NCBI GenBank assembly: GCA_943789275.1
Contig: CALSTM010000002.1
Span: forward strand, 510,001 to 542,000
Direction: 5' to 3'
DNA length: 32,000 nt
From: Candidatus Poseidoniaceae archaeon
GTDB lineage: Archaea > Thermoplasmatota > Poseidoniia > Poseidoniales > Poseidoniaceae
The notes under the pieces are model-generated. The model ran no database searches. It was given only the letters and a program-made list of their open reading frames with translations, and had not been told where the DNA came from. This document shows positions 4,998 through 29,977 of the stretch, piece after piece. The translations under genes were made by a program, and so were the position numbers. Every line of letters starts with the position of its first letter. Position 1 is the stretch's first letter.

Positions 4998-6929
4998 ATG
5001 GCAGGTGACGCTGACGATGATGTGGAGGTCGTTTTAGACGCCATCATCGCTGATGCTCCGCAACAGAAAATCATTGCCGGTGGTATTGAAGAATTGAATC
5101 ATGGACGCCGACAACTGAACTTCTCAGCGGTTTCAACAATCGCTGTTTCTGTCGTGTTTTTGCTGCTGGCAATGACCTTTGGCGATGCGTTGGTGAAGTC
5201 ATCAAACGAGGAAAGTTTCAGCAGCGATTGGTGGGATACACCGCTTCAACTTCGCCATACTATGGACTTACCAATGGATACACTGCGAGCTCAATTGCCC
5301 GTAAACGGAACCTATGAAGCCTTACCATACACCGAACACTTCATCGAAGTAGAACTTCCAGCCAGTGAACAAGACGTTGGATTCCCTGGCCCAGCGCTGA
5401 TGCACATTGCTCTGTGGCTACCGAACGTCCCTGAAAGCGAAAAGATTCCAGTGATTATGACGATTCACCCCTACTACGACTTTGGAGGCGAAGGAATGCC
5501 CGGAGTCGGTGAAGATTCATCTCCAAATACCGTTCCTGACGGAGGCGTTGGTAAGTGGGTCTACGACACCTTCCTTCCACACGGCTACGCTTTTGCCCAA
5601 GCATCAACCTTTGGCACCGGTCAATCCACTCACTGCCAAGATGTCAAAGGTCTTGGCGAGCAAACCGGGATTCAAGCCGCAACCGATTGGCTGGGCCAAC
5701 AAAACTGGTCGAACGGTAACGTCGGACTCATGGGCAAATCCTATGCTGGAACGACAAATTGGGAGGCTGCCCAAAATCCATCGGAACATTTGAAGACAAT
5801 TGTACCTATTTCTGGCTCCATCGGCGTTCAAGAAATGTTCTATCGAAACGGCTCATCAGAAGCACGTGCTATGGGTTACGATGCTGCTTATCAAGCAGCA
5901 ACGACTGACCTCACCACCGATGATGTGCGCATGTGCAGTGACGACTTGGTTGGGCCGCTGAACCCTTGGAGTACATGGGGTTGGGCTGAGTTCGGTGGAG
6001 CAGACTGGTCCGATTACTGGGATGAACGCCGACATTTGCCGGATGTGCTCGAAAATTACAAGGGCAGCGTCTACATTGTTTGGGGGCTTCAGGATTGGAA
6101 CGTAGACCCATACCATGCTTTCCCAACCTATCAATTGCTGCGCGATGCTGGAATCAATACTCGAGCAATATCCGGTCAATGGGCCCACAACTACCCAGAC
6201 CAACCTGACCGACACAGCGAATTATCTTCCGGATACGGGTCTGAAGCATACCCGAACATGAGCAGAATGGATTGGGCTGTGGAACTGTTTGGATGGTTCA
6301 ACTATTATCTCAAAGACATTGGGGAAGAACCTGAACCTATGGTCCAAATCCAAACGAACGATGGACGATGGCACGTTGAAGAAACTTGGCCTCCCGAAGA
6401 CGTATCGCTGATGGTTCACGACCTCTCGAGTGATTGGAGCGGTGCATCCGGAACGGTCAACGGCGTAGGCTCATCCGTAACGATGACCAGTCCTGTATTT
6501 GACAATCAAACGCACATATCAGGACTTCCAACATTGCACCTTGAAGTGACAACACAAGTCTGCAACGGTGGACAAATCTTCGCTACGATGTATGACGACA
6601 CATCCAATTTACGTCTCGGTCATGCAACCATGGATATTCGATACCGCGATGGAGGATATGAAGCCAAAGCGACAGCACCTGGAACCGGCTATACGATGTT
6701 GATGGAGTTCAATCCCTTGGATGTGATCGTTCCTGCCGGCCATTCCCTACGTGTCGAATTAACAGAAACTGGAGAAGATTACCTCCCAGGGCCTTGCGCT
6801 GGAAACCCTCTTGGTGGATTGAGTATTGATGGAGGAACTATCGGTTTACCTCTTATTGACCGCCCGGTTGATGATGACCGTTGGTTCCTTTCCCCCCCAT
6901 GGTGGGACCAACAACCAATCCCGTCCTAA
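4998..6929 (+). CDS. CocE/NonD-family (peptidase S15, X-Pro dipeptidyl-peptidase-like) serine hydrolase, N-terminally anchored
   Basis: 643 aa. Nucleophile elbow GLMGKSYAGTT (GxSYxG, typical of S15/CocE). N-terminal TM VSTIAVSVVFLLLAMTF. Large C-terminal beta-rich domain typical of the family. Confidence 0.78.
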   Translation: MAGDADDDVEVVLDAIIADAPQQKIIAGGIEELNHGRRQLNFSAVSTIAVSVVFLLLAMTFGDALVKSSNEESFSSDWWDTPLQLRHTMDLPMDTLRAQLPVNGTYEALPYTEHFIEVELPASEQDVGFPGPALMHIALWLPNVPESEKIPVIMTIHPYYDFGGEGMPGVGEDSSPNTVPDGGVGKWVYDTFLPHGYAFAQASTFGTGQSTHCQDVKGLGEQTGIQAATDWLGQQNWSNGNVGLMGKSYAGTTNWEAAQNPSEHLKTIVPISGSIGVQEMFYRNGSSEARAMGYDAAYQAATTDLTTDDVRMCSDDLVGPLNPWSTWGWAEFGGADWSDYWDERRHLPDVLENYKGSVYIVWGLQDWNVDPYHAFPTYQLLRDAGINTRAISGQWAHNYPDQPDRHSELSSGYGSEAYPNMSRMDWAVELFGWFNYYLKDIGEEPEPMVQIQTNDGRWHVEETWPPEDVSLMVHDLSSDWSGASGTVNGVGSSVTMTSPVFDNQTHISGLPTLHLEVTTQVCNGGQIFATMYDDTSNLRLGHATMDIRYRDGGYEAKATAPGTGYTMLMEFNPLDVIVPAGHSLRVELTETGEDYLPGPCAGNPLGGLSIDGGTIGLPLIDRPVDDDRWFLSPPWWDQQPIPS

Positions 6930-6952
6930 TCCGTTGAATTTCTTCGATTTCT

Positions 6953-6964
6953 CCCTTTTTTGGG
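6953..6964 (+). terminator. Oligo-T tract (CCC-TTTTTT-GGG) downstream of the peptidase gene
   Basis: T6 run at 6956-6961, 27 nt after the stop at 6929. Archaeal termination typically uses oligo-T. A TATA-like CTAAAT at 6973-6978 follows, about 25 nt before ATG 7001. Confidence 0.35.
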
Positions 6965-7000
6965 TGAAAGGGCTAAATCAACCTGCACCATCGCTTTGAC

Positions 7001-7735
7001 ATGGCAAGTCCTACTGTAGACGATGCAGGTACAGTCTTGTTGACTGAAATCGCCAGCATTGGCCCGTATCTTGGGCCGATTATGCTTGCCATATCCCTGT
7101 TTTTAATGTTCAAAGGTCATGAAAAACTGCAACTTGTTGCTGGAATGACGGGTGCTGGAATTGGCTTCCTCATCACGCCGCTAACACATACGCTGGCCAC
7201 AGAATTCGGTGTTGAAATTCGACAACTGTACATCATGATCACGCTGATTGTCGTTTGCGGCGCATTCATGGCGGCAACCATACAATTGAGTATTCGATTG
7301 ATGGCTGGATTTTTGATTTACGTGAGCTTTGCCGGTGTCTTCGAGTTTCTCCAAGGAAAAGGAATCGAAGTTGTGGAAAGCGACATGATTCAAGGCGTGA
7401 TGGCTATTTTGGCCTTCTTCTCAGTTCGCTGGATGAGAAACGTGCTCCCAGTGTTGGTCTCTGGTCTGTTGGGCTCGATAGGGACAATGGGTGCTATGTT
7501 GCTGCTCACTGGAAATTCACTCACTTTGATGAGTCCTTCGAACAATTCAACGCTTGGAATGCTCTCTGTCTTATTCATTCTCAGTTTCTCATGGCAATAC
7601 AGCCAAATTCGTTCAAAGAAACTCAAATCAAATCAAGACCCAGACATGCCACAAATGCAACAAGTCAGTGGACAACAAATTCAAACTCGACAACGCAGAG
7701 CCGGCGACTTACCAGATTTGAGAGATTTTTCTTAG
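7001..7735 (+). CDS. Polytopic membrane protein with Q-rich C-terminal tail, unknown function
   Basis: 244-aa ORF with about 6 hydrophobic segments and the tail PQMQQVSGQQIQTRQRR. The alternative-frame ORF 7255-7836 lacks such features. Confidence 0.6.
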   Translation: MASPTVDDAGTVLLTEIASIGPYLGPIMLAISLFLMFKGHEKLQLVAGMTGAGIGFLITPLTHTLATEFGVEIRQLYIMITLIVVCGAFMAATIQLSIRLMAGFLIYVSFAGVFEFLQGKGIEVVESDMIQGVMAILAFFSVRWMRNVLPVLVSGLLGSIGTMGAMLLLTGNSLTLMSPSNNSTLGMLSVLFILSFSWQYSQIRSKKLKSNQDPDMPQMQQVSGQQIQTRQRRAGDLPDLRDFS

Positions 7736-7737
7736 AA

Positions 7738-8466
7738 TCAATCGTCGTAAGGCTGCCAGTCTTCTTGGCCTTCTTCTCGATACCACCAGTATCCATCTTC
7801 ATCTTCAAACCATTCGACGCCGTCTTCATCAACTGAATAGCCTTCCAATTCTTCATCCTCTTCGCTCTGTTCGAAGGCTTCCTCGTCCTCAGCGTTGGGG
7901 TCAACTAAACCCGTTTCTTGCGAAATCTGTTGTTTAAGGCGTTCTAATTCTTCAGTTTCGTCACCGAAAACTCTGTTCTCAGTCCGAATCTCTGCTTGAT
8001 GGTCACCTTTTCGAATGGCGTCATCGGATTCGGCCAAGAAATCGTCGCTCATTCGAGCTTTGAATTCTTCAAACTCGTCACGGCCATAACTGCCGACAAA
8101 CTCATTTCCCTTCGCTTGCATTAGATCATCGAGATTTTTTCGCTTTCCGAGTTTCAATTCAGGGGCGTCAGGAACTGCGCCAGCGTAGAAAGAATCCTCG
8201 TCTTCGGACAACTTGCCGAATGTTCGGTTCTCCGGGTCGGCCTCCTCGATGGCTTCAATGATGAGGTCGTGTTCTTCTTCATCGATGTTTTCTTGCTCAT
8301 AGTTTTCACCAACGATATTGACGAGTTTGTTGAGTGTTCGAGCAAGTTTTCGGTCGTCGTCTTCGTGCTCGGTAACAAGTTTGTCAACTTGTTTCAAGAG
8401 ACGTTCGTACGGCGTTCCGGTGAGAGCGCCAATGAATCGGCCAAACCCTCCCTTCTTCCTCGCCAT
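7738..8466 (-). CDS. Hyper-acidic protein with basic N-terminus and C-terminal Trp-rich WW-like motif
   Basis: Start set at ATG 8466 (MARKKGGFGRFIGALTG). The body is D/E-rich. C-terminus is GVEWFEDEDGYWWYREEGQEDWQPYDD (7741-7821). The track's longer version (to 8643) would overlap the divergent JAMM gene. Confidence 0.62.
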   Translation of the reverse strand: MARKKGGFGRFIGALTGTPYERLLKQVDKLVTEHEDDDRKLARTLNKLVNIVGENYEQENIDEEEHDLIIEAIEEADPENRTFGKLSEDEDSFYAGAVPDAPELKLGKRKNLDDLMQAKGNEFVGSYGRDEFEEFKARMSDDFLAESDDAIRKGDHQAEIRTENRVFGDETEELERLKQQISQETGLVDPNAEDEEAFEQSEEDEELEGYSVDEDGVEWFEDEDGYWWYREEGQEDWQPYDD

Positions 8467-13450: not shown

Positions 13451-16400
13451 TCACTCCCCCTTGAGTACACTGGCTAAGTCCGACTTCAATGCACGACGAG
13501 TGGTCACCAACAAAGCGATGACAACCGCAGTGAACACCGATAAGGACACCAGTAACAGCTGTGTCCACGGATAAACCAACGTTCGTTCTATCGTGGTCGA
13601 TGAACCTCCAAAGATTTGGAAGATGAATCCGAAGATATCAAAGAATCCATTAAACGAGAGAGCGACGCCGATTCCAAGAACAATTCCTAAGGCCATGGAA
13701 ACCATGACAATGGAAAGAATCTCGAACAACACCAGCCGTATGATTTGGTTTGGTGATGCGCCGATTGCTTGCAGAACTGCGAGTTCTTTTTGACGTTGAC
13801 TGAGAACCAACGAAAGGAAAACGAAACTTGACGCAACGGCAGCTACGCTGGCCACAACGAACTGCAGAGAGAGAAGACCGGGTGTTCCGAAAATCAATCC
13901 GCCGTTACGTTCTACACTCTTGTGTGAACTGGACCAGTCAAGGACACTGGAGACTCTGAAGTCTGCAGACAGCGTTGATGCGAGCGCTTCGAGTTTATCG
14001 CCACCTACACCGTCAACTTCAACAATCCAGGTTGTAGAGGAATAATTGGCAACTTCATCTGCCCCAACCAGAGCAACCCACGATGATTCACCGATAATCA
14101 GTGAAGAACCCATGGTCGCTGCACTCACGCCTGGAATGTATTGATGAACGCCAATGTAATCCATCGGTGTGGTGAACGGTGTAATGACAATTTGTACGGT
14201 GGTGTCTGCTAAGAACAGCGGTGCTGCAAGCGGCGGCGGTACTTGCGAAAGACCGGAAGCACACGATGTTTCGTTGGCGGAAGTTCCGTCCGGACAGGTT
14301 GCGTTTCCAAGCGTTGCAGTGGATAAGTCTGCGAATCCAAATACTCCGGTCAAGTCAGCGCCGATGAAGTTGGCACCTTCCATTGAGCCACCCATGAAGT
14401 TCACGATTACTGCCTCTTTGAGATTGGCATCTGAAAGGTCAGCACCGTCAAGGTTGGTATCAAAGAGGAGCGCTTGTTCTAAGTTTGCGCCGGCAAGATT
14501 GGCATTCGATAGGTCGGTTCCAGTGAGGTCAACTGCGCCGAAGTCTCGCCCGCTGAGGTCTTGTCCTGAGAGGTTCAGTCCAGACCAGTCCCCTTCCATC
14601 AAAGAGGAATAGGCAACAAACAAAGCGTTCGGGTCGGCTTGGTCGGTCCCTCCGCTGCTGAAATTGAATTCGAGTTTCTCCCACAGGAAAGTGATTTCTT
14701 CACTCTGACGGTCGGATGGTTTCAACAATTTATCGTTCAGTTGGTTTTCATCACCACGGCCTGAACCGGCAATGTCCAACGAATAGGCTGCATCTTCACC
14801 TGCGGAGAATCCACCGTTTCGGTAAGCAGCCATGGCTTTGTCTGTGTCTTCACCTGGAATCGCTTGTTCACTCCAGCGAAGGACATCTTCGTTGTCATCC
14901 AACAGAATCCATGTCAGTAACTTGTCTCCACCGTTCACGTCGTTCAAGAACAGACTTGGGACCGTCGTTGCAGTCGCAGTAACGTCCGCTTCGGTGAAAT
15001 TGGAAACCAATCCGAGAACTTGAGCCTCAGAATATTGTTGCTCGAGTGTGATCTGGAGATCCGCACCAACCGTAGCATCGACGGTTTTCTCGTCCACCAG
15101 TGTACCGGTGTATCCTTGTACCGCTGCAAGCGTTACGATGGAAAGAGTGAGCAGCATAATGACTGCGAGGCGATTCACGGACTCGGCAGAGCCAGAGCCC
15201 TTGAGGCCGCGCTTGACATCGTTCAATAGAGGTGTTCTTCCGAGGATGAGTTGCATGATTTGTGGACCACGAGCCCCGATTCGGCCGAGCAGTAAAGCAC
15301 CGCCAATCCAAAGCGCAAACGGTCCAATGATTCCGAGTAAGCCGTTGATGAAGAAGTTGAGGTTGAGACCGTCTTCACTGCCGTTAAGTTTGAGCCAGGC
15401 ATCGGTAACTGCGAGCATTCCAAACAAGAAAGAAAGCCAGTGAAGCCATCGCTTCGGTTCAGATTTGGCAGTCGTCTTACGTACACCTTCTTCAATTTCA
15501 AGAGCGATGAAATCCCGAGCTCTGCTCCTGCCGAACAGGAGCGCTAGACCGAGGGTCGTTACCGCAGTGAAAATCGTTGAGGCAATACCCAAGGTTGGAT
15601 TGACATCGAAATCTCCAGTCCTAAACTCCATGAATCCGACGGCAGACAGAACGATCGGAACAGCGAAAAGGGCCAGTAAATATCCGGCTAACCACGCCAC
15701 TGATGACATGACGAAAAGTTCCAACAGCACCATACTTTGCAGCCGTGGGCCGTCGGCACCTATTACGCGATGTATACTTACTTCCCTACGCCGTTGTTCA
15801 AGTGAAAGAACCAATCCGTAGATGAGAACTGCAATCGAGAGAATGACAATTGGTATCATAATGATGTAATCGAAAATCTGAATCAGGCCAAGGAAGATGT
15901 TCAAGAACGTGATTGTACCGCTCACAATGTCGGTATAGTACAGTTCTACGCCTTCGTCGGTGTAACTTCCGTCTTGGACGCGGGTTCCAAGGTCTTCAAG
16001 CCATTCTGCTGCATCAGCCGTTGAACTGGTTGGCAGTTGTCCTCGGTCAATGGTAACCCCGAGATACATGTGGTCGTTGTCCATCAACGCAGCACGCTGT
16101 GTCTCTTCTAACACTTCCCAAGTCGTGAAAATTGGGTTCGGTCCAAGGGTCGGATTTCCTAAATCCCACGGCTCATAGATACCAAGAACGGTGAGGTTTG
16201 TCGCAGTCATTGGCATACGGCAGTAGACCATTTCGTTCTGTTCAGGAGTGACTTCTCCATCGCAGTTTTCGTTGTTCACCGTCGCTTCCAACAGTGTTGA
16301 TTCATCGACAACATAAGCGAAGGTAAGTGAATCAAGCACGTCGCCTACATTGGCCTTGGCTTCGGAAGCCACCGTCGAAGGAAGAATCACGCCGCGCTGC

Positions 16401-17074
16401 GCGCTGACGTTCTCTGGACTGGGCCATTCACCAAGGCCTGCGATGATGTTTTCACCGAGTCGGTCAGCAAATTCGCCGTCGAACGCTTCAGGCCCGAGGA
16501 AGCGTACAGCGCGGCTCGAAGAAATTGGTGGCCCTGCGTCGGCTAACTCGGGATAATCGAACGTCACATTGCCCCAATATGGATTGGCATCGTCGGTAAT
16601 TGCTAACATTTCAAGTGGTTGAGCAACAATGAAATCTTGATTGAAGAATCCTCCGCTGTGTATGCCTTGACGGCCTAGAACCAGCGTACAGTCGCTGAAC
16701 TCACTGAACTCCTCCATCAATTCATCACAAACACCGGTCATCGTTGTCGTGTTGTTTGACCAACCGCTGCTGTTTTCGACTGGAGTCCGGGCGTACTCGA
16801 TTTTTGCATCGAAAGGCTCGCCCGAGAGAGATTCCTCGAAGAAGAGTTGCGAGAGGCCAACACCATAGGCAAGAACAGTCGTGATCACGAGCGATGCGAG
16901 GAAAACTCCAGCAATGACCGCAAGGCCACGCTCTTTACCGCGCCAAGCACTCAGACCAGCGAGGCGGAGTTGCGATGGCGTTTCGGCCAACTTGTGAACG
17001 ATTCTTTGACCAATGTTTCGAGACGTAGCAAAATCATTGGTTTCGAGTTCGAGAGATTCGTCTCCCTTGGTCAT
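13451..17074 (-). CDS. Giant (1207 aa) MacB/FtsX-type ABC permease with two FtsX modules and an embedded pentapeptide-repeat domain
   Basis: Two FtsX-like modules (LEQRRREVSIHRVIGADGPRL... and LSQRQKELAVLQAIGASPNQI...). Each is preceded by a TM helix and a 300-400-aa loop. Start overlaps the upstream ATPase stop (ATGA 17071-17074). Confidence 0.85.
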   Translation of the reverse strand: MTKGDESLELETNDFATSRNIGQRIVHKLAETPSQLRLAGLSAWRGKERGLAVIAGVFLASLVITTVLAYGVGLSQLFFEESLSGEPFDAKIEYARTPVENSSGWSNNTTTMTGVCDELMEEFSEFSDCTLVLGRQGIHSGGFFNQDFIVAQPLEMLAITDDANPYWGNVTFDYPELADAGPPISSSRAVRFLGPEAFDGEFADRLGENIIAGLGEWPSPENVSAQRGVILPSTVASEAKANVGDVLDSLTFAYVVDESTLLEATVNNENCDGEVTPEQNEMVYCRMPMTATNLTVLGIYEPWDLGNPTLGPNPIFTTWEVLEETQRAALMDNDHMYLGVTIDRGQLPTSSTADAAEWLEDLGTRVQDGSYTDEGVELYYTDIVSGTITFLNIFLGLIQIFDYIIMIPIVILSIAVLIYGLVLSLEQRRREVSIHRVIGADGPRLQSMVLLELFVMSSVAWLAGYLLALFAVPIVLSAVGFMEFRTGDFDVNPTLGIASTIFTAVTTLGLALLFGRSRARDFIALEIEEGVRKTTAKSEPKRWLHWLSFLFGMLAVTDAWLKLNGSEDGLNLNFFINGLLGIIGPFALWIGGALLLGRIGARGPQIMQLILGRTPLLNDVKRGLKGSGSAESVNRLAVIMLLTLSIVTLAAVQGYTGTLVDEKTVDATVGADLQITLEQQYSEAQVLGLVSNFTEADVTATATTVPSLFLNDVNGGDKLLTWILLDDNEDVLRWSEQAIPGEDTDKAMAAYRNGGFSAGEDAAYSLDIAGSGRGDENQLNDKLLKPSDRQSEEITFLWEKLEFNFSSGGTDQADPNALFVAYSSLMEGDWSGLNLSGQDLSGRDFGAVDLTGTDLSNANLAGANLEQALLFDTNLDGADLSDANLKEAVIVNFMGGSMEGANFIGADLTGVFGFADLSTATLGNATCPDGTSANETSCASGLSQVPPPLAAPLFLADTTVQIVITPFTTPMDYIGVHQYIPGVSAATMGSSLIIGESSWVALVGADEVANYSSTTWIVEVDGVGGDKLEALASTLSADFRVSSVLDWSSSHKSVERNGGLIFGTPGLLSLQFVVASVAAVASSFVFLSLVLSQRQKELAVLQAIGASPNQIIRLVLFEILSIVMVSMALGIVLGIGVALSFNGFFDIFGFIFQIFGGSSTTIERTLVYPWTQLLLVSLSVFTAVVIALLVTTRRALKSDLASVLKGE
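14300..14590 (-). repeat. Pentapeptide-repeat (A[D/N]LXX) coding tract inside the permease gene
   Basis: Translation reads NLSGQ DLSGR DFGAV DLTGT DLSNA NLAGA NLEQA LLFDT NLDGA DLSDA NLKEA ... FADLS TATLG, about 18-20 consecutive pentads. The periodicity also creates the spurious antisense ORF 14169-14612. Confidence 0.72.
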
Positions 17075-17805
17075 TCTTCTTCACCTCCAACTTCTTCTTC
17101 ATCCAAGCCCCATGCAGAGCGGATGTCCGACGCTTCGGTCCTTCCATCGTTCAACAGCAACATACGGTCAGCGTTTGAAGCCAAATCCGGATCGTGAGTC
17201 ACCATGAGGATTGAAATCGGATTTTCCTCATCGTGACAGAGGTCTTTGAACAATTGTAAAACTTCCCTGCCGCTGGCAATATCGAGGTTACCTGTTGGCT
17301 CATCCGCCAATAACAACGGACGATTTCCCGCAATCGCACGAGCGATGGCTACCCGTTGCTGTTGTCCACCTGACAACTGGTCCGGAACGTGATTCATACG
17401 GTCTTCAAGACCGACTTTAGCGAGGGCAACCTTGGCAGCAGCTTCTGCGTCCTTGGCTTGCATCCCAGATAATTCGAGAGCCATTGCGACATTGTCAACT
17501 GCAGTGAGGTTATCCAAAAGATGGAAGTCTTGGAAAATCCATCCCACATGCTCTCTGCGGATGTGAACAACGCTGGAAGGATTTTTCTTACCGTAAATCT
17601 GGTCGTTGAGATGGATTTCTCCACTGTCTCCAGCAAGCAAGCCGCCAATGATATTGAGAAGGGTCGATTTACCGGAGCCCGATGGGCCCATGAGAGCAAC
17701 CATCTCGCCTTGTTTGAGTTTCATATCAACGCCCTTGAGCACTTGCAGTTTGTTCGAGCCAGACCCGAAAGCCTTCGTGAGTTTAGTTACTTCTAGCATT
17801 TTCAT
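17071..17805 (-). CDS. ABC transporter ATP-binding protein (MacB/LolD-type)
   Basis: Walker [11 protein letters not shown]-loop, signature [14 protein letters not shown], Walker [13 protein letters not shown], and an acidic tail [14 protein letters not shown] (17808-17812, minus strand) is spaced better for the second ATG at 17799, so the true start may be 17799. Confidence 0.9.
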
Positions 17806-17858: not shown

Positions 17859-18509
17859 TCAATTCATCGCATCTTCGTCGACAGGTTGTAGAATCAAACG
17901 AAGTGTTCGCCCAAGCAAGTCATGAAGCAACAGGGTTTCCTCCGTAGGTGGCTTGCCTTTGGTGTAGGTTTGGAGCATCGGTTCGTAAAATACATCACCT
18001 ATACCGTCGGTCAATTTTTGAAGAATCTCAATAGAAAGGTCAGTGCGCACCAGCCCCCATTCTTGGCCCAATCTGAGACCCTCCCGGAAATGGCTTTGAA
18101 GCGGCGCGCTGCACACGGCAAGCCGTTCGTAAATCGGGTGATTTGGTGGAATTTGTTGGGAGACCATTTGTCCATTCTCAACAAAACCATTGTCGTCCCA
18201 AAACCGCTCTGTGATGAGCCTGGACTCGCGCATGTGACTCCAATATTCGGTGGCCGAGGTCGGATGGCCATGTTCATCCAAGCGCAAACGAAGCGCATCC
18301 AGTCCTTCTTGCATGACGGTGAAAAACAAATCAGCCTTGTCTTCGAACCAATAGTAGAATTGCCCTTTTGAGATTTCCAGTTCCTTTAAGAGAAGGTTGA
18401 GTGATGTAGCATCATAGCCATTGATTGCGAACTGAGCTTTGGAAATTCTGAGCACCCGTTCCTTTTCTTCCTGCGGAATATTAAGGAACCGTTTCAGGGG
18501 CATGAGCAC
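17859..18509 (-). CDS. TetR/AcrR-family transcriptional regulator
   Basis: N-terminal HTH pattern RVLRISKAQFAINGYDATSLNLLLKELEISKGQFYYWFEDKADLF, typical of TetR. Start is GTG 18509 or ATG 18503. Confidence 0.85.
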   Translation of the reverse strand: MLMPLKRFLNIPQEEKERVLRISKAQFAINGYDATSLNLLLKELEISKGQFYYWFEDKADLFFTVMQEGLDALRLRLDEHGHPTSATEYWSHMRESRLITERFWDDNGFVENGQMVSQQIPPNHPIYERLAVCSAPLQSHFREGLRLGQEWGLVRTDLSIEILQKLTDGIGDVFYEPMLQTYTKGKPPTEETLLLHDLLGRTLRLILQPVDEDAMN

Positions 18510-28314: not shown

Positions 28315-28510
28315 GTAACTCCGTTAGCGCCTCCCTTTTTCAATCGTCGCGTAGGATTGTGTGTGTAATAGAGAACATGCCTTGAGAGATATAGGTGTTT
28401 TTGAAGGGGAGTGGATGGTTCAGAACATCATGCCAACGAAGGATGATGAGGAAGACTTCCATCTCGATGTGCAAATTGGTGCATTGCAACGCATGTTCTC
28501 AGCATGAGAG

Positions 28511-28539
28511 TATATATCCAGTAGAATACTTGATTCTAC
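28511..28539 (+). promoter_or_regulatory. TATA box plus perfect 7-bp inverted repeat (candidate operator) abutting the E1-like start codon
   Basis: TATATAT at 28511-28517. GTAGAAT-ACTTG-ATTCTAC at 28521-28539 ends 1 nt before ATG 28540. The spacing implies a leaderless transcript that starts within or at the edge of the palindrome. Confidence 0.45.
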
Positions 28540-29193
28540 ATGGATGAAGACTTGCCGCAAAAATCGCTGTTAATAATTGGTGCCGGAGGCATCGGAACAA
28601 CCGTTGTTGACCTACTGGTTCCCGCACTTGAACGAATACAACTCGGTGCCAAAATCACTCTGATGGATGGCGATACCGTTGAAGCCTCAAACCTCGGTCA
28701 TCAAAATTACAGTACTGCGGATATCGGAAAAAAGAAAGTCGATGCTCTTGCGGATAAATGGTCCAAAGCTCATGGCTTACAAGTGCGCTCTGTTGCAGAA
28801 AACCTGAGGGATTTTGAACAACTTGAGGGATATGATTTGGTCGTGGTTTGCGTTGATAGGCCGGAACCTCGAAGATTGGTTCATTCCCTTGATGTGCCTT
28901 GGATTGACTTGAGATGCTCCGGTGATGGCTGGATGGTATTCACTTCTGATTCCGATTCAAACTTAGTGGCTCAGATGACACCCGACCACGAACCGATGAG
29001 TTGCCAAGTGGAGGGAGCGCTCGACGCAGGAAACCTCGAATTTGGATTTTCCATCGCTGGGACGTTCGGCGCCCAGTGGATTCTGCAACAGCTGAGAGGA
29101 AGACGTGCGCCGTTGCAATCGATTGGAAGCCTGACGTATGGGAGTTTCGAATTCCCGAAGGTCAGCAGTCCATCAATGGAGGTGAAGGCGTGA
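28540..29193 (+). CDS. Minimal ThiF/MoeB/E1-like adenylyltransferase-fold protein (217 aa)
   Basis: Rossmann LLIIGAGGIGT. E1 adenylation motif MDGDTVEASNLGHQ...IGKKKVDAL, with His in place of the usual Arg of SNLxRQ. VVVCVDRPEPRR (D...R motif), and C-terminal CQVEGALD...GTFGAQWILQQL. No CxxC pairs and no rhodanese domain. Confidence 0.8.
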   Translation: MDEDLPQKSLLIIGAGGIGTTVVDLLVPALERIQLGAKITLMDGDTVEASNLGHQNYSTADIGKKKVDALADKWSKAHGLQVRSVAENLRDFEQLEGYDLVVVCVDRPEPRRLVHSLDVPWIDLRCSGDGWMVFTSDSDSNLVAQMTPDHEPMSCQVEGALDAGNLEFGFSIAGTFGAQWILQQLRGRRAPLQSIGSLTYGSFEFPKVSSPSMEVKA

Positions 29194-29741
29194 TTTTCAT
29201 TCCTGGACTTGAACAACTCAATGTCGATGAAGAGATGTGGTCGCATGTGACTGAAATGGCTCAACAACGCCAGATTGATGACGAAGTCCTGCTCGATGTG
29301 CAACAGCGTGCAGCACAGAACGGCCGATGGGATGTTGTCTATGCAATATCCGTTCTCGCAGGTCTTGAGACATCGGTGCTTATCGACGCTGAGAACGTTA
29401 TATCAATCGATTGGGGCACTTCTGGATTCGTCCAACTTTCACCCCCCGTTGGGTGTGTCGCACCGTTCAAACTCTGGGTACACACCCACCCTGGATTTAG
29501 CGCATACTGGTCTGGTACAGACACTCGAAGCCTTTCCATTGGAGTAGGTATCGTTGAGAAAGCAATGGTTCTCGGTTCACCAGGAGTCAAGTGTGCTCAC
29601 AACGCTACCATGCTTCCGTTGACTGAAGACACCTTGCGAATTGCAGCCAACGGCCCGTTGAGCGACTGGTCAGATGAAGAAATTATTCCATGGGCCGATT
29701 GGTATGAAAGCAACCTCAACACCGAAGAGGTGAGCGCATGA
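29190..29741 (+). CDS. JAMM/MPN (JAB) domain protein (183 aa)
   Basis: HTHPGFSAYWSGTD is a full HxHx7Sx2D motif. GTG 29190 overlaps the upstream stop (GTGA) and follows GGAGGTGA (29178-29185). The track's ATG 29001 would overlap the E1-like gene by 190 nt in another frame. An alternative ATG lies at 29235. Confidence 0.75.
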   Translation: MIFIPGLEQLNVDEEMWSHVTEMAQQRQIDDEVLLDVQQRAAQNGRWDVVYAISVLAGLETSVLIDAENVISIDWGTSGFVQLSPPVGCVAPFKLWVHTHPGFSAYWSGTDTRSLSIGVGIVEKAMVLGSPGVKCAHNATMLPLTEDTLRIAANGPLSDWSDEEIIPWADWYESNLNTEEVSA

Positions 29742-29977
29742 GCGGTATCCGAAAACCAAAGGACGACGCTGAGAAAATCAAAGCTCGTATGGCGATTGCT
29801 CAAGGAAAAGGGACTTCATTGGAAGATTTCATCGAAAACATCACCGGTGAAAAGCCCGAAGAAGAATTCGTTCAAGCCATCAAAAACCGGATTGAACTTG
29901 CTCACGAGCAGGAAGAAACTCTGGACATCGTGGCGCTCATCAAACAAATGGAGGAGCTGCAAAACCAATGGGCTTAA
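29738..29977 (+). CDS. 79-aa K/E-rich helical protein, unknown function, translationally coupled to the JAMM gene
   Basis: ATGA start/stop overlap at 29738-29741, with GAGGTGA (29727-29733) 4 nt upstream. The sequence MSGIRKPKDDAEKIKARMAIAQGKG...EELQNQWA has no GG terminus and no recognisable motif. Confidence 0.55.
   Translation: MSGIRKPKDDAEKIKARMAIAQGKGTSLEDFIENITGEKPEEEFVQAIKNRIELAHEQEETLDIVALIKQMEELQNQWA

What the first reader, a model, noticed from the sequence alone, without database searches (positions are those of the whole stretch)
28511..29977. Orphan E1-like / JAMM / 79-aa helical protein operon, leaderless and translationally coupled, with no ubiquitin-like or E2 gene in cis
Seen in sequence: a TATA-like box (28511-28517) sits about 25 nt before ATG 28540. 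The E1-like stop (TGA 29191-29193) overlaps the JAMM GTG start (29190). The JAMM stop overlaps the next ATG (ATGA 29738-29741). Both internal starts have near-perfect Shine-Dalgarno boxes (GGAGGTGA 29178-29185; GAGGTGA 29727-29733). The 217-aa E1-like protein keeps the Rossmann GAGGIG, DGDTVEASNLGHQ and VCVDRPEPRR motifs. It has His where ThiF/MoeB/UbaA have the Arg of SNLxRQ, and it lacks CxxC zinc pairs, a rhodanese domain and any obvious catalytic-Cys domain. The JAMM protein has an intact HxHx7Sx2D (HTHPGFSAYWSGTD), but the usual upstream E..G.L.G glutamate context is not evident (RWDVVYAISVLAGLE). The third protein is 79 aa, K/E-rich, apparently all-helical and has no GG end. Established knowledge: E1+JAB pairs underlie archaeal SAMPylation (UbaA/JAMM1), sulfur-carrier maturation (CysO/Mec, PdtFGH-type) and bacterial anti-phage Ubl systems (CBASS Cap2/Cap3, Bil). 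All of these involve a beta-grasp protein and often an E2. Inference: this stripped-down trio lies between unrelated housekeeping genes (gmd, fadB-like) and has its own promoter and operator. It may be an undescribed adenylation/conjugation-deconjugation module acting on a trans-encoded target, with the 79-aa protein as adaptor, substrate or inhibitor.
Basis: partly seen in the sequence, partly recalled or inferred. Interest (0 to 1): 0.8.

Follow-up and report, generated by a model that had tools for sequence, protein, structure and literature searches.

The report
Ubiquitin-like activation module of marine archaea
These three genes encode the activating enzyme, the protease and a small helper protein of an apparently undescribed ubiquitin-like tagging system, found across Marine Group II archaea and their viruses, whose small tag protein is encoded next door in sister lineages but not in this genome's neighbourhood.

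Summary
Three translationally coupled genes sit at 28540-29977: a 217-aa ThiF/E1-like protein, a 183-aa JAMM protein and a 79-aa protein. They lie behind a conserved TATA box in a Marine Group II (Poseidoniaceae, MGIIa) genome.

- **Conservation:** the trio keeps the same order in every MGIIa locus with enough flanking sequence.
- **Not housekeeping:** the E1 is not an orthologue of UbaA, MoeB, ThiF or TcdA.
- **First-reader corrections:** the JAMM glutamate is present (E60, invariant). The E1 has an invariant Cys155 that aligns to ThiF Cys184. The system is not Ubl-less as a family.
- **Relatives:** homologous E1+JAMM pairs occur in all 52 magrovirus-like contigs with enough upstream sequence, in natural E1::JAMM fusion proteins, and in MGIIb chromosomes.
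- **A tag protein in relatives:** in those relatives a ~66-75-aa ThiS-like protein sits nearby. It ends in (V/I/Q)GG plus 0-8 extra residues. None lies in the 32-kb window or in 88 MGIIa loci.

Most likely the trio is the E1, JAMM and accessory core of a Poseidoniales/magrovirus-specific Ubl system. In MGIIa it would act on a Ubl encoded elsewhere in the genome, without an E2. Whether the output is protein conjugation or sulfur transfer is untested. I rate it a new variant of a known kind.

The parts
28511..28517 (+). TATA-like box of the operon promoter. The first gene is probably leaderless.
   Evidence: Read directly. An equivalent (g)TATATAT or TTTATA element at about -29 to -23 from the E1 start is conserved in most MGIIa relatives. 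The transcription start has not been mapped.
28521..28539 (+). Perfect 7-bp inverted repeat GTAGAAT-N5-ATTCTAC between the TATA box and the ATG. It is not conserved as a palindrome.
   Evidence: It is present only in the window and L010. Other relatives keep only a GAATnCTT-like stretch.
28540..29193 (+). Minimal E1-like (ThiF-family) adenylating enzyme, 217 aa. The nucleotide-binding residues are kept (GxGGIG 14-19, D43, D45, N51, Q55, K66, D106). H54 replaces the Arg of SNLxRQ. There is no CxxC zinc site. The S154-C155-Q156 motif is invariant.
   Evidence: Pfam ThiF 3.9e-19. NCBIfam hits all fall far below their cut-offs. hhalign to E. coli ThiF gives 95.9% probability with C155 aligned to ThiF C184 (ThiF sequence verified). 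Family-wide invariants in 82 sequences.
29178..29185 (+). Shine-Dalgarno GGAGGTGA for the JAMM gene, lying inside the E1 coding region. It also explains the conserved E-V-x-A C-terminus of the E1.
   Evidence: C-terminal EVKA/EVSA in homologues.
29190..29741 (+). JAMM/MPN+ metalloprotease, 183 aa, GTG start overlapping the E1 stop. The active site E60, H98, H100, S108, D111 is complete.
   Evidence: Alignment A1. The five catalytic residues are invariant in 101/101 sequences. AF2 model pLDDT 89.7, pTM 0.86. Foldseek best PDB hits are CSN5, Rpn11 and AMSH (E 2e-3 to 5e-2, TM 0.35-0.4). Best BFVD hits are viral JAB/MPN proteins (E 4e-9). Pfam Prok-JAB is only weak (0.0074).
29727..29733 (+). Shine-Dalgarno GAGGTGA for the third gene, inside the JAMM coding region.
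29738..29977 (+). Accessory protein of 79 aa, with no Pfam, NCBIfam, PADLOC or PHROGs match. It lies directly after JAMM in all cellular lineages and in the fusion loci. It has a conserved N-terminal R-x-P-(K/E/Q)-D-D motif, a central G-x-S-(I/L) motif and a Trp near the C-terminus.
   Evidence: Alignments A2 and A5. hhalign A2 against the MGIIb/fusion-locus set A6 gives 97.8% probability. PDB profile hits are only designed helical bundles. A helical fold is inferred from composition, not modelled.

Best explanation
The three genes are the enzyme core and an accessory subunit of a lineage-specific ubiquitin-like (Ubl) system. The system is shared by Marine Group II archaea (Poseidoniales) and their viruses.

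**Shown**
- The E1-like protein keeps the ThiF-type nucleotide-binding residues and an invariant Cys at the ThiF Cys184 position.
- The JAMM protein keeps a complete metalloprotease site.
- The two are functionally linked. They are always adjacent, they are translationally coupled, and in some relatives they are fused into one polypeptide.
- In MGIIb chromosomes, fusion loci and magrovirus-like contigs the same pair is accompanied by a small ThiS-like protein. That protein ends in (V/I/Q)GG followed by 0-8 extra residues.

**Inferred mechanism**
1. The JAMM protease trims the extension to expose the Gly-Gly end.
2. The E1 adenylates that carboxylate with ATP.
3. Cys155 takes over the activated Ubl as a thioester or acyl persulfide.
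4. The Ubl is then passed on without an E2. Most probably it goes to lysines of target proteins, as in archaeal SAMPylation and in urmylation. JAMM would also reverse the conjugates.

In this MGIIa genome the Ubl gene is not nearby, so the trio would act on a Ubl encoded elsewhere in the genome. The 79-aa protein is a conserved third subunit, possibly an adaptor or regulator. It is not the tag.
For: **Identity of the parts**
- E1.
- JAMM.

**Linkage of E1 and JAMM**
- The order E1-JAMM-small holds in all MGIIa loci with enough flank and in metagenome contigs.
- Natural E1::JAMM fusions exist: P0330 and P0341, 405-407 aa.
- E1 is present in 52/52 viral loci that have at least 7.5 kb upstream of JAMM.

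**Ubl in relatives**
- Fusion loci L170-L173 read Ubl(...SLQGG-H/Q)-E1::JAMM-86-aa-TFB-like.
- Viral family 14 ends ...PAIVGG plus 0-2 aa. It occurs in 29/52 loci and matches the fusion-locus Ubl HMM at E 1e-13.
- The Ca. Thalassarchaeum chromosome reads Ubl(...PGLVGG-L)-E1-JAMM-79-aa-TFB-like, on a contig of 294 kb.
- MGIIb L179 (...PGLIGG-WL), L176 (...PGLVGG-LG) and virus-like L180 (...PGLVGG-MNDNESQR) also carry it.
- The GG is not a Shine-Dalgarno artefact. Its codons vary, and the next gene lies 43-483 nt away in most loci.

**No E2**
- No E2/UBC family was seen in any Pfam table of the neighbourhoods.

**Vertical inheritance**
- Synteny is conserved with the convergent fadB-like gene.
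- MGIIa and the viral clades are each monophyletic for both E1 and JAMM.
Against: - No Ubl of this family was found in the window or in 88 MGIIa loci. I could not search whole MGIIa genomes, so the trans-encoded Ubl is an inference.
- The Ubl fold is not demonstrated. Pfam and PDB profile searches found nothing. hhalign to ThiF's partner ThiS aligns in register to the GG but is not significant (probability 7.8%).
- The E1 lacks the Arg of SNLxRQ in the whole family: His in cells, Tyr or Asn in viruses. Adenylation activity is therefore assumed, not shown.
- Nothing distinguishes conjugation from sulfur transfer except context.
- The role of the 79-aa protein is unknown.
- No complex or E1 structure could be modelled. 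The single-sequence model of the fusion protein failed (pLDDT 34).
Confidence: 0.55

Rival explanations
1. Housekeeping sulfur-carrier activation. The E1 would be the MGII equivalent of MoeB, ThiF or UbaA. It would adenylate and thiocarboxylate a MoaD/ThiS/SAMP-type protein for molybdopterin, thiamine or tRNA thiolation. JAMM would mature the carrier, as Mec+ does for CysO and QbsD does for QbsE.
For: - The protein is a ThiF-family member.
- Its Cys aligns with ThiF C184, the residue that forms the acyl disulfide with ThiS (the role of C184 is from established knowledge).
- The Ubl ends in GG plus an extension, as in JAMM-processed sulfur carriers.
- The module is core, syntenic and lineage-wide.
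- A tungsten or molybdopterin enzyme (AFOR) lies a few genes away in some relatives.
Against: - Scores are far below the equivalog cut-offs for ThiF, MoeB and UbaA.
- There is no rhodanese domain or partner, and no MoaE, ThiG, CysM or Ncs6 in any neighbourhood.
- The same set is a near-universal gene pair of magrovirus-like genomes. There it sits beside a TFIIB-like protein and a chaperonin, where sulfur-cofactor synthesis has no obvious use.
- The Arg of SNLxRQ and the zinc site are missing.
Confidence: 0.15
2. A virus-host conflict module. The Ubl-less MGIIa trio would act on the Ubl system of infecting magroviruses, for example by stripping or mis-activating the viral Ubl. Alternatively it would be a Bil/CBASS-like defence that tags viral proteins.
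For: - Homologous E1, JAMM and Ubl genes occur in magrovirus-like contigs.
- MGIIa has the enzymes but no Ubl in cis.
- There are partial PADLOC hits to Cap2-type E1-E2 and to BilD.
Against: - The PADLOC hits cover only the Rossmann half, and no E2 domain is present. JAMM and the small protein give no PADLOC hit.
- The trio holds a fixed chromosomal position between housekeeping genes in every MGIIa locus examined. GC content is ordinary and there are no mobile-element or effector genes.
- The host and viral clades are reciprocally monophyletic, which argues against recent exchange.
- MGIIb hosts carry their own Ubl.
Confidence: 0.1
3. The 79-aa protein is itself the substrate or modifier. The E1 would adenylate its C-terminus, and JAMM would process or release it (one of the first reader's options).
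For: - It is always encoded with the two enzymes and is translationally coupled to JAMM.
- Within MGIIa the C-terminus is almost always W followed by one small residue, A, T or V.
- Non-beta-grasp E1 substrates are known, for example the cGAS C-terminus in CBASS and MccA (established knowledge).
Against: - It co-occurs with a dedicated GG-Ubl in Thalassarchaeum, MGIIb and the fusion loci.
- Outside MGIIa the tail after the Trp has 5 residues of varying sequence, and one MGIIa genome ends in H-V. E1 substrates normally keep a fixed tail.
- It has no detectable counterpart in the viral loci, although E1 and JAMM are there.
Confidence: 0.07

Closest known systems
Archaeal SAMPylation (UbaA E1, SAMP1-3, HvJAMM1 of Haloferax volcanii)
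   Same: An archaeal system with a single E1-like enzyme, no E2 or E3, small GG-terminal Ubls and a JAMM/MPN+ protease that removes or processes the Ubl. The E1, JAMM and Ubl genes need not be adjacent. This is the best functional analogue.
   Different: - The E1 here is 217 aa. It has no CxxC zinc site, and His replaces the Arg of SNLxRQ.
- It scores 34.9 bits against the UbaA cut-off of 450.
- The JAMM is barely seen by Pfam Prok-JAB.
- The Ubl family is not recognised by the ThiS or MoaD models.
- An extra 79-aa subunit is present.
- The system is also carried by viruses.
JAMM-matured sulfur carriers (CysO/MoeZ/Mec+ of Mycobacterium; QbsE/QbsC/QbsD of Pseudomonas)
   Same: A ThiS/MoaD-like protein made with residues after the GG. 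A neighbouring JAMM removes them before an E1-like enzyme adenylates the carrier.
   Different: There is no rhodanese domain and no sulfur-acceptor enzyme in any neighbourhood. The system is present in viral genomes. The E1 is much reduced.
Bacterial antiphage Ubl systems (type II CBASS Cap2/Cap3, Bil, Bub)
   Same: E1-like and JAB proteins are encoded together. PADLOC E1-E2 models hit the Rossmann half at 3e-11, and BilD hits at 2e-5. BubCD and Cap3 appear among the weak fold matches of the JAMM model.
   Different: There is no E2 domain or gene and no effector. The trio is not in a defence island. It is vertically inherited and core to a whole archaeal order.
PRTRC (ParB-related, ThiF-related cassette) of plasmids and ICEs
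   Same: This is the best NCBIfam hit of the E1 (PRTRC_ThiF, 1.4e-16). It is also a short ThiF-like protein carried on mobile elements.
   Different: The score is 60.6 bits against a cut-off of 144.75, and it covers only profile positions 13-125. No PRTRC protein A-F or ParB gene is present.
ThiF + JAB pairs of tailed viruses (crAss001 gp76/gp77) and the 'MoeB/ThiF' auxiliary gene noted in archaeal viruses
   Same: - crAss001 gp76 (ThiF) matches the viral E1 over its full length.
- It lies next to gp77, which carries an HSHx7SGTD JAMM motif, in the replication module.
- PMC8276007 remarks that a ThiF/MoeB gene is among the most prevalent auxiliary genes of predicted archaeal viruses.
   Different: - Identity to the crAss proteins is only about 26%, the gene order is reversed and the proteins are much larger.
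- The published remark on archaeal viruses mentions neither the JAMM partner, nor the Ubl, nor the host homologues.

Membership tests
ThiF/E1-like superfamily (PF00899) | Rossmann-type nucleotide-binding fold with GxGxxG, the DxD...N..Q segment, a conserved Lys and a Mg-binding Asp | tested here: met
   Pfam ThiF 3.9e-19, 69.2 bits against a cut-off of 28.1. G14-G19, D43, D45, N51, Q55, K66 and D106 are invariant in 82/82 sequences.
ThiF/E1-like superfamily (PF00899) | Arg of the SNLxRQ motif (ATP phosphate contact) | tested here: not met
   The position is His in all 23 cellular and fusion sequences, and Tyr (56) or Asn (3) in the viral sequences.
UbaA / MoeB / ThiF equivalogs (housekeeping E1-like enzymes) | Score above the curated NCBIfam equivalog cut-off | tested here: not met
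   UbaA 34.9 against 450. MoeB 36.8 against 376.55. ThiF 49.8 against 275.25 and 52.3 against 159. thiF_fam2 36.8 against 152.2.
UbaA / MoeB / ThiF equivalogs (housekeeping E1-like enzymes) | Two CxxC pairs forming the structural zinc site | tested here: not met
   ThiF C169xxC172 aligns to SDSDSNLV in the window protein. The protein ends before the second pair.
UbaA / MoeB / ThiF equivalogs (housekeeping E1-like enzymes) | Conserved Cys in the crossover loop (ThiF C184, MoeB C187, UbaA C188) | tested here: met
   hhalign aligns window C155 to ThiF C184 at 95.9% probability. C155 is invariant in 82/82 sequences.
JAMM/MPN+ metalloproteases | E...HxHx7Sx2D metal and catalytic motif | tested here: met
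   E60, H98, H100, S108 and D111 are invariant in 101/101 sequences.
JAMM/MPN+ metalloproteases | MPN fold | tested here: met
   The AF2 model has pLDDT 89.7. The top Foldseek PDB hits are CSN5, Rpn11 and AMSH (probability up to 0.99 but E only 2e-3 to 5e-2, TM 0.35-0.4). BFVD JAB/MPN proteins hit at E 4e-9. The metal-site geometry of the model was not inspected.
JAMM/MPN+ metalloproteases | Pfam Prok-JAB (PF14464) above its gathering score | tested here: not met
   16.6 bits against a cut-off of 25, over only 20 residues.
Prokaryotic Ubl conjugation or sulfur-carrier systems (E1 + JAB + beta-grasp protein) | A small GG-terminal beta-grasp protein encoded with the enzymes | tested here: not met
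   This holds for the window and MGIIa only. There is no such ORF in 32 kb, and the Ubl HMM's best E is 0.52 across the window plus 88 MGII host loci, nearly all MGIIa. The feature is met in relatives: MGIIb, fusion loci and viral contigs. The beta-grasp fold of that protein was not tested.
Type II CBASS (Cap2/Cap3), Bil, Bub | E2 (UBC-like) domain or gene | tested here: not met
   PADLOC E1-E2 models match only their E1 half, for example profile positions 369-472 of 607. No E2 family appears in the Pfam tables of any neighbourhood.
Type II CBASS (Cap2/Cap3), Bil, Bub | CD-NTase and effector, or location in a defence island | tested here: not met
   The neighbours are gmd, a GST-like gene, Taw1, a phosphate transporter and a fadB-like gene. 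The same synteny holds across MGIIa.
PRTRC system | PRTRC_ThiF above cut-off, together with PRTRC proteins A-F and a ParB-like gene | tested here: not met
   60.6 bits against 144.75. No NCBIfam PRTRC hit for the JAMM or the small protein. No ParB among the neighbours tested.

The most novel reading that the evidence does not exclude
Poseidoniales, among the most abundant archaea of the surface ocean, and their magroviruses would share a previously unrecognised, E2-independent protein-tagging system. It is built from a minimal 185-230-aa E1, a divergent JAMM and a new Ubl family.

Both sides of the infection would use the system. The viral copy lies beside a TFIIB-like factor, and the same type of factor flanks the module in several cellular lineages and in the fusion loci. 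This points to control of transcription initiation or of replisome proteins by Ubl tagging.

In MGIIa the host would have lost the cis Ubl. Its enzymes might then also act on the viral Ubl, which would make the trio part of an archaeal virus-host arms race fought with ubiquitin-like tags.
Probability: 0.2. Interest if true: 0.85.

Novelty: new variant of a known kind. Interest (0 to 1): 0.62.

Why it matters
E1/JAB/Ubl systems are the prokaryotic roots of ubiquitin signalling. They have recently become important in antiviral immunity.

**Why this one stands out**
- It is restricted, as far as sampled, to a globally abundant but uncultured archaeal order and its viruses.
- It is core in the hosts. 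The JAMM scan matched 143 GTDB species genomes, and all 80 loci listed are MGII.
- The E1-JAMM pair is present in every adequately sampled magrovirus-like contig.
- It uses the smallest E1 I know of (my own knowledge, not tested here). That E1 lacks two features usually thought important, the Arg of SNLxRQ and the zinc site.

**What it offers**
- A compact, testable archaeal model for E2-independent Ubl activation.
- A case of a virus carrying a complete Ubl system homologous to its host's.
- A new conserved 80-aa partner protein.

The papers I could search mention only a 'ThiF/MoeB' auxiliary gene in archaeal viruses (PMC8276007). None of the magrovirus papers read mentions ThiF, JAB or ubiquitin.

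Tried and rejected
1. **Viral family 12.** This 70-90-aa CxxC...HxxxH protein lies between the viral E1 and JAMM and ends in (M/L)GG plus one residue. It looked like a second GG modifier. I rejected it as evidence because the GG codons are GGAGG-type Shine-Dalgarno sequences, 5-10 nt before the next start codon. The same effect explains the GGDE ends in L178 and L179 and the EVxA ends of the host E1 and JAMM.
2. **Fusion-protein model.** An AlphaFold model of the natural fusion P0341 without an alignment failed (pLDDT 33.8).
4. **Annotation libraries.** Searches of the 79-aa protein and the JAMM against PADLOC, NCBIfam and PHROGs gave nothing useful.
5. **Host small protein in viruses.** An HMM of the host small protein against the viral ORFs found no counterpart.
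6. **Ubl against known families.** Pfam, a PDB profile search and hhalign to E. coli ThiS gave no significant match.
7. **Best PDB hit of the E1.** The best sequence hit is 9egb/9egc/9egd, an unnamed ThiF-type protein. No paper on it could be found.
8. **Extra gene after the small gene.** The fourth genes of L032 and L007 are not homologous to each other.
9. **IMG/VR scan with the fusion protein.** It found nothing.
10. **Neighbouring tRNA gene.** I considered a tRNA-modification role, because Taw1 is adjacent in some relatives and TcdA is a ThiF-family enzyme. I dropped it. Taw1 adjacency is not conserved, and TcdA is only a weak Rossmann-region hit (1.3e-6).


Full report
**1. What is in the window**

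The region 28540-29977 holds three same-strand ORFs:
- a 217-aa ThiF-family protein (28540-29193);
- a 183-aa protein starting at GTG 29190, which overlaps the TGA of the first gene;
- a 79-aa protein whose ATG (29738) overlaps the stop of the second (ATGA).

Near-consensus Shine-Dalgarno boxes lie 4 nt upstream of each internal start (GGAGGTGA 29178-29185; GAGGTGA 29727-29733). A TATATAT box (28511-28517) ends 22 nt before the first ATG.

The operon lies between a divergent GDP-mannose dehydratase gene and a convergent 3-hydroxyacyl-CoA dehydrogenase/enoyl-CoA hydratase gene. GC content is unremarkable and there are no tRNA genes. Best hits of all three proteins are from Candidatus Poseidoniaceae, that is Marine Group II (MGIIa) archaea.

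**2. The parts**

*E1-like protein.*
- Pfam ThiF scores 3.9e-19.
- Every curated NCBIfam model is far below its cut-off. The best is PRTRC_ThiF at 60.6 against 144.75. UbaA scores 34.9 against 450, MoeB 36.8 against 376.55 and ThiF 49.8 against 275.25.
- PADLOC Cap2-type 'E1-E2' and BilD models match only the Rossmann half.
- Against the PDB, only residues ~5-118 align to Uba1, MccB, Uba4, MoeB, Cap2, ThiF and TcdA.
- Profile alignment to E. coli ThiF gives 95.9% probability. I recalled that sequence from memory and one search showed it identical to 1zud. The alignment places window Cys155 on ThiF Cys184. The ThiF CxxC has no counterpart.
- In an alignment of 82 cellular, fused and viral family members the invariant residues are G14, G16-G19, D43, D45, N51, Q55, K66, D106, R111, D123, R125, S154-C155-Q156 and W180. 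The Arg of SNLxRQ is never Arg. It is His in all cellular and fused proteins, and Tyr or Asn in viral ones.

*JAMM protein.*
- Pfam sees it only weakly (Prok-JAB 0.0074).
- E60, H98, H100, S108 and D111 form a textbook E...HxHx7Sx2D motif. They are invariant in 101/101 sequences.
- An AlphaFold model built on 23 homologues has pLDDT 89.7.
- Its best PDB matches are CSN5, Rpn11 and AMSH. These are weak (E 2e-3 to 5e-2, TM 0.35-0.4).
- In BFVD the best matches are viral JAB/MPN proteins, the best at E 4e-9.

*79-aa protein.*
- It matches nothing in Pfam, NCBIfam, PADLOC or PHROGs.
- In the PDB it matches only designed helical bundles.

**3. Conservation in hosts**

- A scan of one genome per GTDB species with the JAMM alignment found 143 genomes. 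All 80 loci listed are Poseidoniales or MGII.
- tblastn of the window's proteins against those loci shows E1-JAMM-small in that order in every locus with enough sequence. The convergent fadB-like gene nearly always follows. Metagenome contigs show the same.
- The upstream neighbour varies (gmd, a GT1 glycosyltransferase, Taw1, an MFS transporter).
- Twelve MGIIa species carry an extra ~320-aa gene after the small gene.
- A TATA-like element is conserved about 23-29 nt upstream of the E1 start. The perfect inverted repeat is not.
- The trio is therefore an old, vertically inherited core operon, not an island.

**4. Relatives outside MGIIa**

An exhaustive profile search with the JAMM alignment found 147 cluster representatives.

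*(i) Natural fusions.*
- P0330 and P0341 (405-407 aa) are E1::JAMM fusions that keep NL(H/S)HQ and ...ASCQ.
- Their metagenome loci (L170-L173) read: 250-aa protein, then a ~71-aa protein ending ...VQIVPSLQGG-H/Q, then E1::JAMM, then an 86-aa acidic protein, then a TFIIB-zinc-ribbon-like protein.

*(ii) Viral pairs.*
- A viral JAMM type (WIHTHPFGxAYFSGTD) occurs in 177 IMG/VR loci.
- In the 80 loci fetched, an E1-like gene is 30-37% identical to the window E1 over residues 8-190. It lies 0.5-2.3 kb upstream on the same strand.
- It is present in all 52 loci that have at least 7.5 kb of upstream sequence.
- These contigs are 15-100 kb with about 37% GC. They carry a TFIIB-like zinc-ribbon protein immediately before the E1 and a Cpn60-family chaperonin a few genes after the JAMM.
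- Magroviruses are described as carrying chaperonin genes in their replicative cluster (PMC5434244). I therefore treat these contigs as magrovirus-like. This is an inference from content, not a classification.

*(iii) MGIIb and other cellular lineages.*
- Ca. Thalassarchaeum (contig of 294 kb, neighbours IMPDH, PMSR and Dus) has a 72-aa protein (...RIVPGLVGG-L), then E1, JAMM, a 79-aa protein and a TFIIB-like protein.
- Another MGIIb locus (L179) has a Ubl (...LTPGLIGG-WL), then a 385-aa zinc-ribbon protein, then E1, JAMM and an 80-aa protein.
- L176/L177 has E1-JAMM-82-aa, with the Ubl (...VLPGLVGG-LG) 6 kb away beside a TFIIB-ribbon protein.
- A virus-like contig with a phage-type RNA polymerase (L180) has a Ubl (...LPGLVGG-MNDNESQR) followed by E1, JAMM and a 74-aa protein.

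**5. The Ubl family**

- An HMM of the fusion-locus protein hits a 66-aa viral family at E 1e-13. That family reads MKLRILNETGHTE...HPTHWVFVDGEMVSRE...PAIVGG plus 0-2 residues. It occurs in 29 of the 52 well-sampled viral loci, 3.2-7.9 kb upstream of the JAMM.
- All members share GH(T/S/Q), a Trp in the middle and a C-terminal (V/I/Q)GG followed by 0-8 residues.
- Because GG can be encoded by a GGAGG ribosome-binding site, I checked the DNA. For this family the Gly codons vary, and the next gene is 43-483 nt away in most loci. The GG is therefore a protein feature.
- For another viral family (family 12, between E1 and JAMM) the GG is an SD artefact, and I discarded it.
- The length, the register of the alignment with E. 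coli ThiS (not significant) and the company it keeps suggest a ThiS-like beta-grasp. No tool result proves the fold.
- No member occurs in the window or in the 88 MGIIa loci. tblastn at E up to 10 gives only a spurious hit containing stop codons, and the HMM's best E is 0.52.

**6. The small protein**

- The MGIIa family (A2) aligns with the proteins that follow JAMM in MGIIb, L176, Thalassarchaeum and the fusion loci. hhalign gives 97.8% probability. The target alignment includes the closer MGIIb and L176 members, so the link to the most distant ones is weaker.
- The C-terminus has a conserved Trp, but the number and identity of the residues after it differ between lineages.
- Because it co-occurs with the GG protein, it is a separate subunit rather than the tag.
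- It has no detectable viral counterpart.

**7. Evolution**

Neighbour-joining trees of both E1 and JAMM place all viral sequences in one clade and all MGIIa sequences in another. The fusions group with MGIIb. The trees are rough: BLOSUM distances, midpoint rooting, no support values. They suggest an old, probably single transfer between virus and host, not ongoing exchange.

**8. Interpretation**

The simplest reading is a Poseidoniales/magrovirus-specific Ubl system.
1. JAMM exposes the GG.
2. The E1 adenylates it.
3. Cys155 carries the activated Ubl.
4. The Ubl is transferred without an E2.

No E2-like family appears in any neighbourhood table. In MGIIa the Ubl gene has moved away from the operon.

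I favour protein tagging over sulfur transfer for three reasons. Viruses keep the system. A TFIIB-like protein is the most constant neighbour outside MGIIa. No sulfur-related gene is ever nearby. This preference rests on context only. The rivals are set out with their tests in the Rival explanations section.

**9. Prior knowledge**

- Full-text searches found no description of this trio or of a magrovirus Ubl system.
- Three magrovirus/Poseidoniales-virus papers and a survey of archaeal tailed viruses do not mention ThiF, JAB or ubiquitin in their main text.
- PMC8276007 notes in passing that a 'MoeB (ThiF family)' gene is among the most prevalent auxiliary genes of predicted archaeal viruses, and speculates about ubiquitination.
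- Iyer et al. 2006 (PMC1779556) catalogued bacterial E1/JAB/Ubl operons, which are the conceptual frame.
- The library does not cover subscription journals, so a prior description cannot be excluded.

**10. Limits**

- I could not search whole MGIIa genomes.
- I could not model the E1, the Ubl, the small protein or any complex.
- Viral gene calls in my scripts are simple longest-ORF calls.

Noticed in passing
window 28395-28508: The stretch just upstream of the E1 promoter encodes ...EDFHLDVQIGALQRMFSA*. This matches the C-terminal end of a 429-aa GT1 glycosyltransferase that sits intact between gmd and the E1 gene in relatives such as L001. The gene appears to have been deleted in this lineage, leaving a 3' remnant that abuts the TATA box.
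   Followed up: partly
P0016, P0047 (E1 homologues); P0022, P0080; P0217, P0221-P0223 (JAMM homologues): Some MGIIa E1 proteins carry an HRDC domain (PF00570) inserted in the variable region after the conserved Lys. Others have a ~140-aa N-terminal extension. Some JAMM proteins carry 70-110-aa inserts after N138. The HRDC insert may hint at a nucleic-acid link.
   Followed up: no
L032 6778-7743, L041 ~6801-7748 and 10 other MGIIa loci; L179 749-1906; L183 8015-11456; L170 4510-7280: A ~320-aa protein with no Pfam match follows the small gene in 12 MGIIa species. It is weakly related to larger proteins, some with an N-terminal zinc ribbon, that flank the module in MGIIb, Thalassarchaeum and the fusion loci. 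It may be a fourth, optional component. It is absent from the window.
   Followed up: partly
L137 6462-7307; L170 3524-4513; L183 6965-8014; L176 785-1972: Proteins with a TFIIB-type zinc ribbon recur next to the E1/JAMM module in viral, fusion-locus and MGIIb contexts. L183 hits the fusion loci at E 1e-17 to 1e-19 and viral family 6 at 6e-5. They may be a target or partner. None lies near the trio in the window.
   Followed up: partly
L100 7757-7999 and 37 other viral loci (family 12): A small CxxC...HxxxH protein lies between the viral E1 and JAMM and ends in (M/L)GG plus one residue. The GG coincides with the Shine-Dalgarno sequence of the next gene, so it is probably not a Ubl-type tail. 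The protein itself remains unexplained.
   Followed up: yes
L137 5290-6477, 7854-8384; viral families 37 and 41: Many ORFs of the magrovirus-like contigs, including the viral JAMM, end in short acidic tails such as WEEE, GEEE or EEEE. This could be a shared docking motif.
   Followed up: no
L178 4954-5175: One MGIIb contig has a 73-aa Myb/SANT-like ORF inserted between E1 and JAMM. The insert duplicates the GGDE/Shine-Dalgarno coupling signal. The otherwise identical locus L179 lacks it.
   Followed up: partly
L169 (Bacteroides phage crAss001, MH675552.1 81394-83792): crAss001 gp77 ('metalloprotease') carries an HSHx7SGTD JAMM motif. It lies directly before gp76 (ThiF) in the replication module. 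The gp76 N-terminal region contains ...IIIQTAIVGGS..., which is reminiscent of the Ubl C-terminus. ThiF+JAB pairs may be a wider feature of viral replication modules.
   Followed up: partly
window 13451-17074 (- strand): This is a 1207-aa protein with pentapeptide repeats and a C-terminal FtsX-like permease domain. It lies next to an ABC ATPase (17071-17805) and a TetR-family regulator (17859-18509).
   Followed up: no
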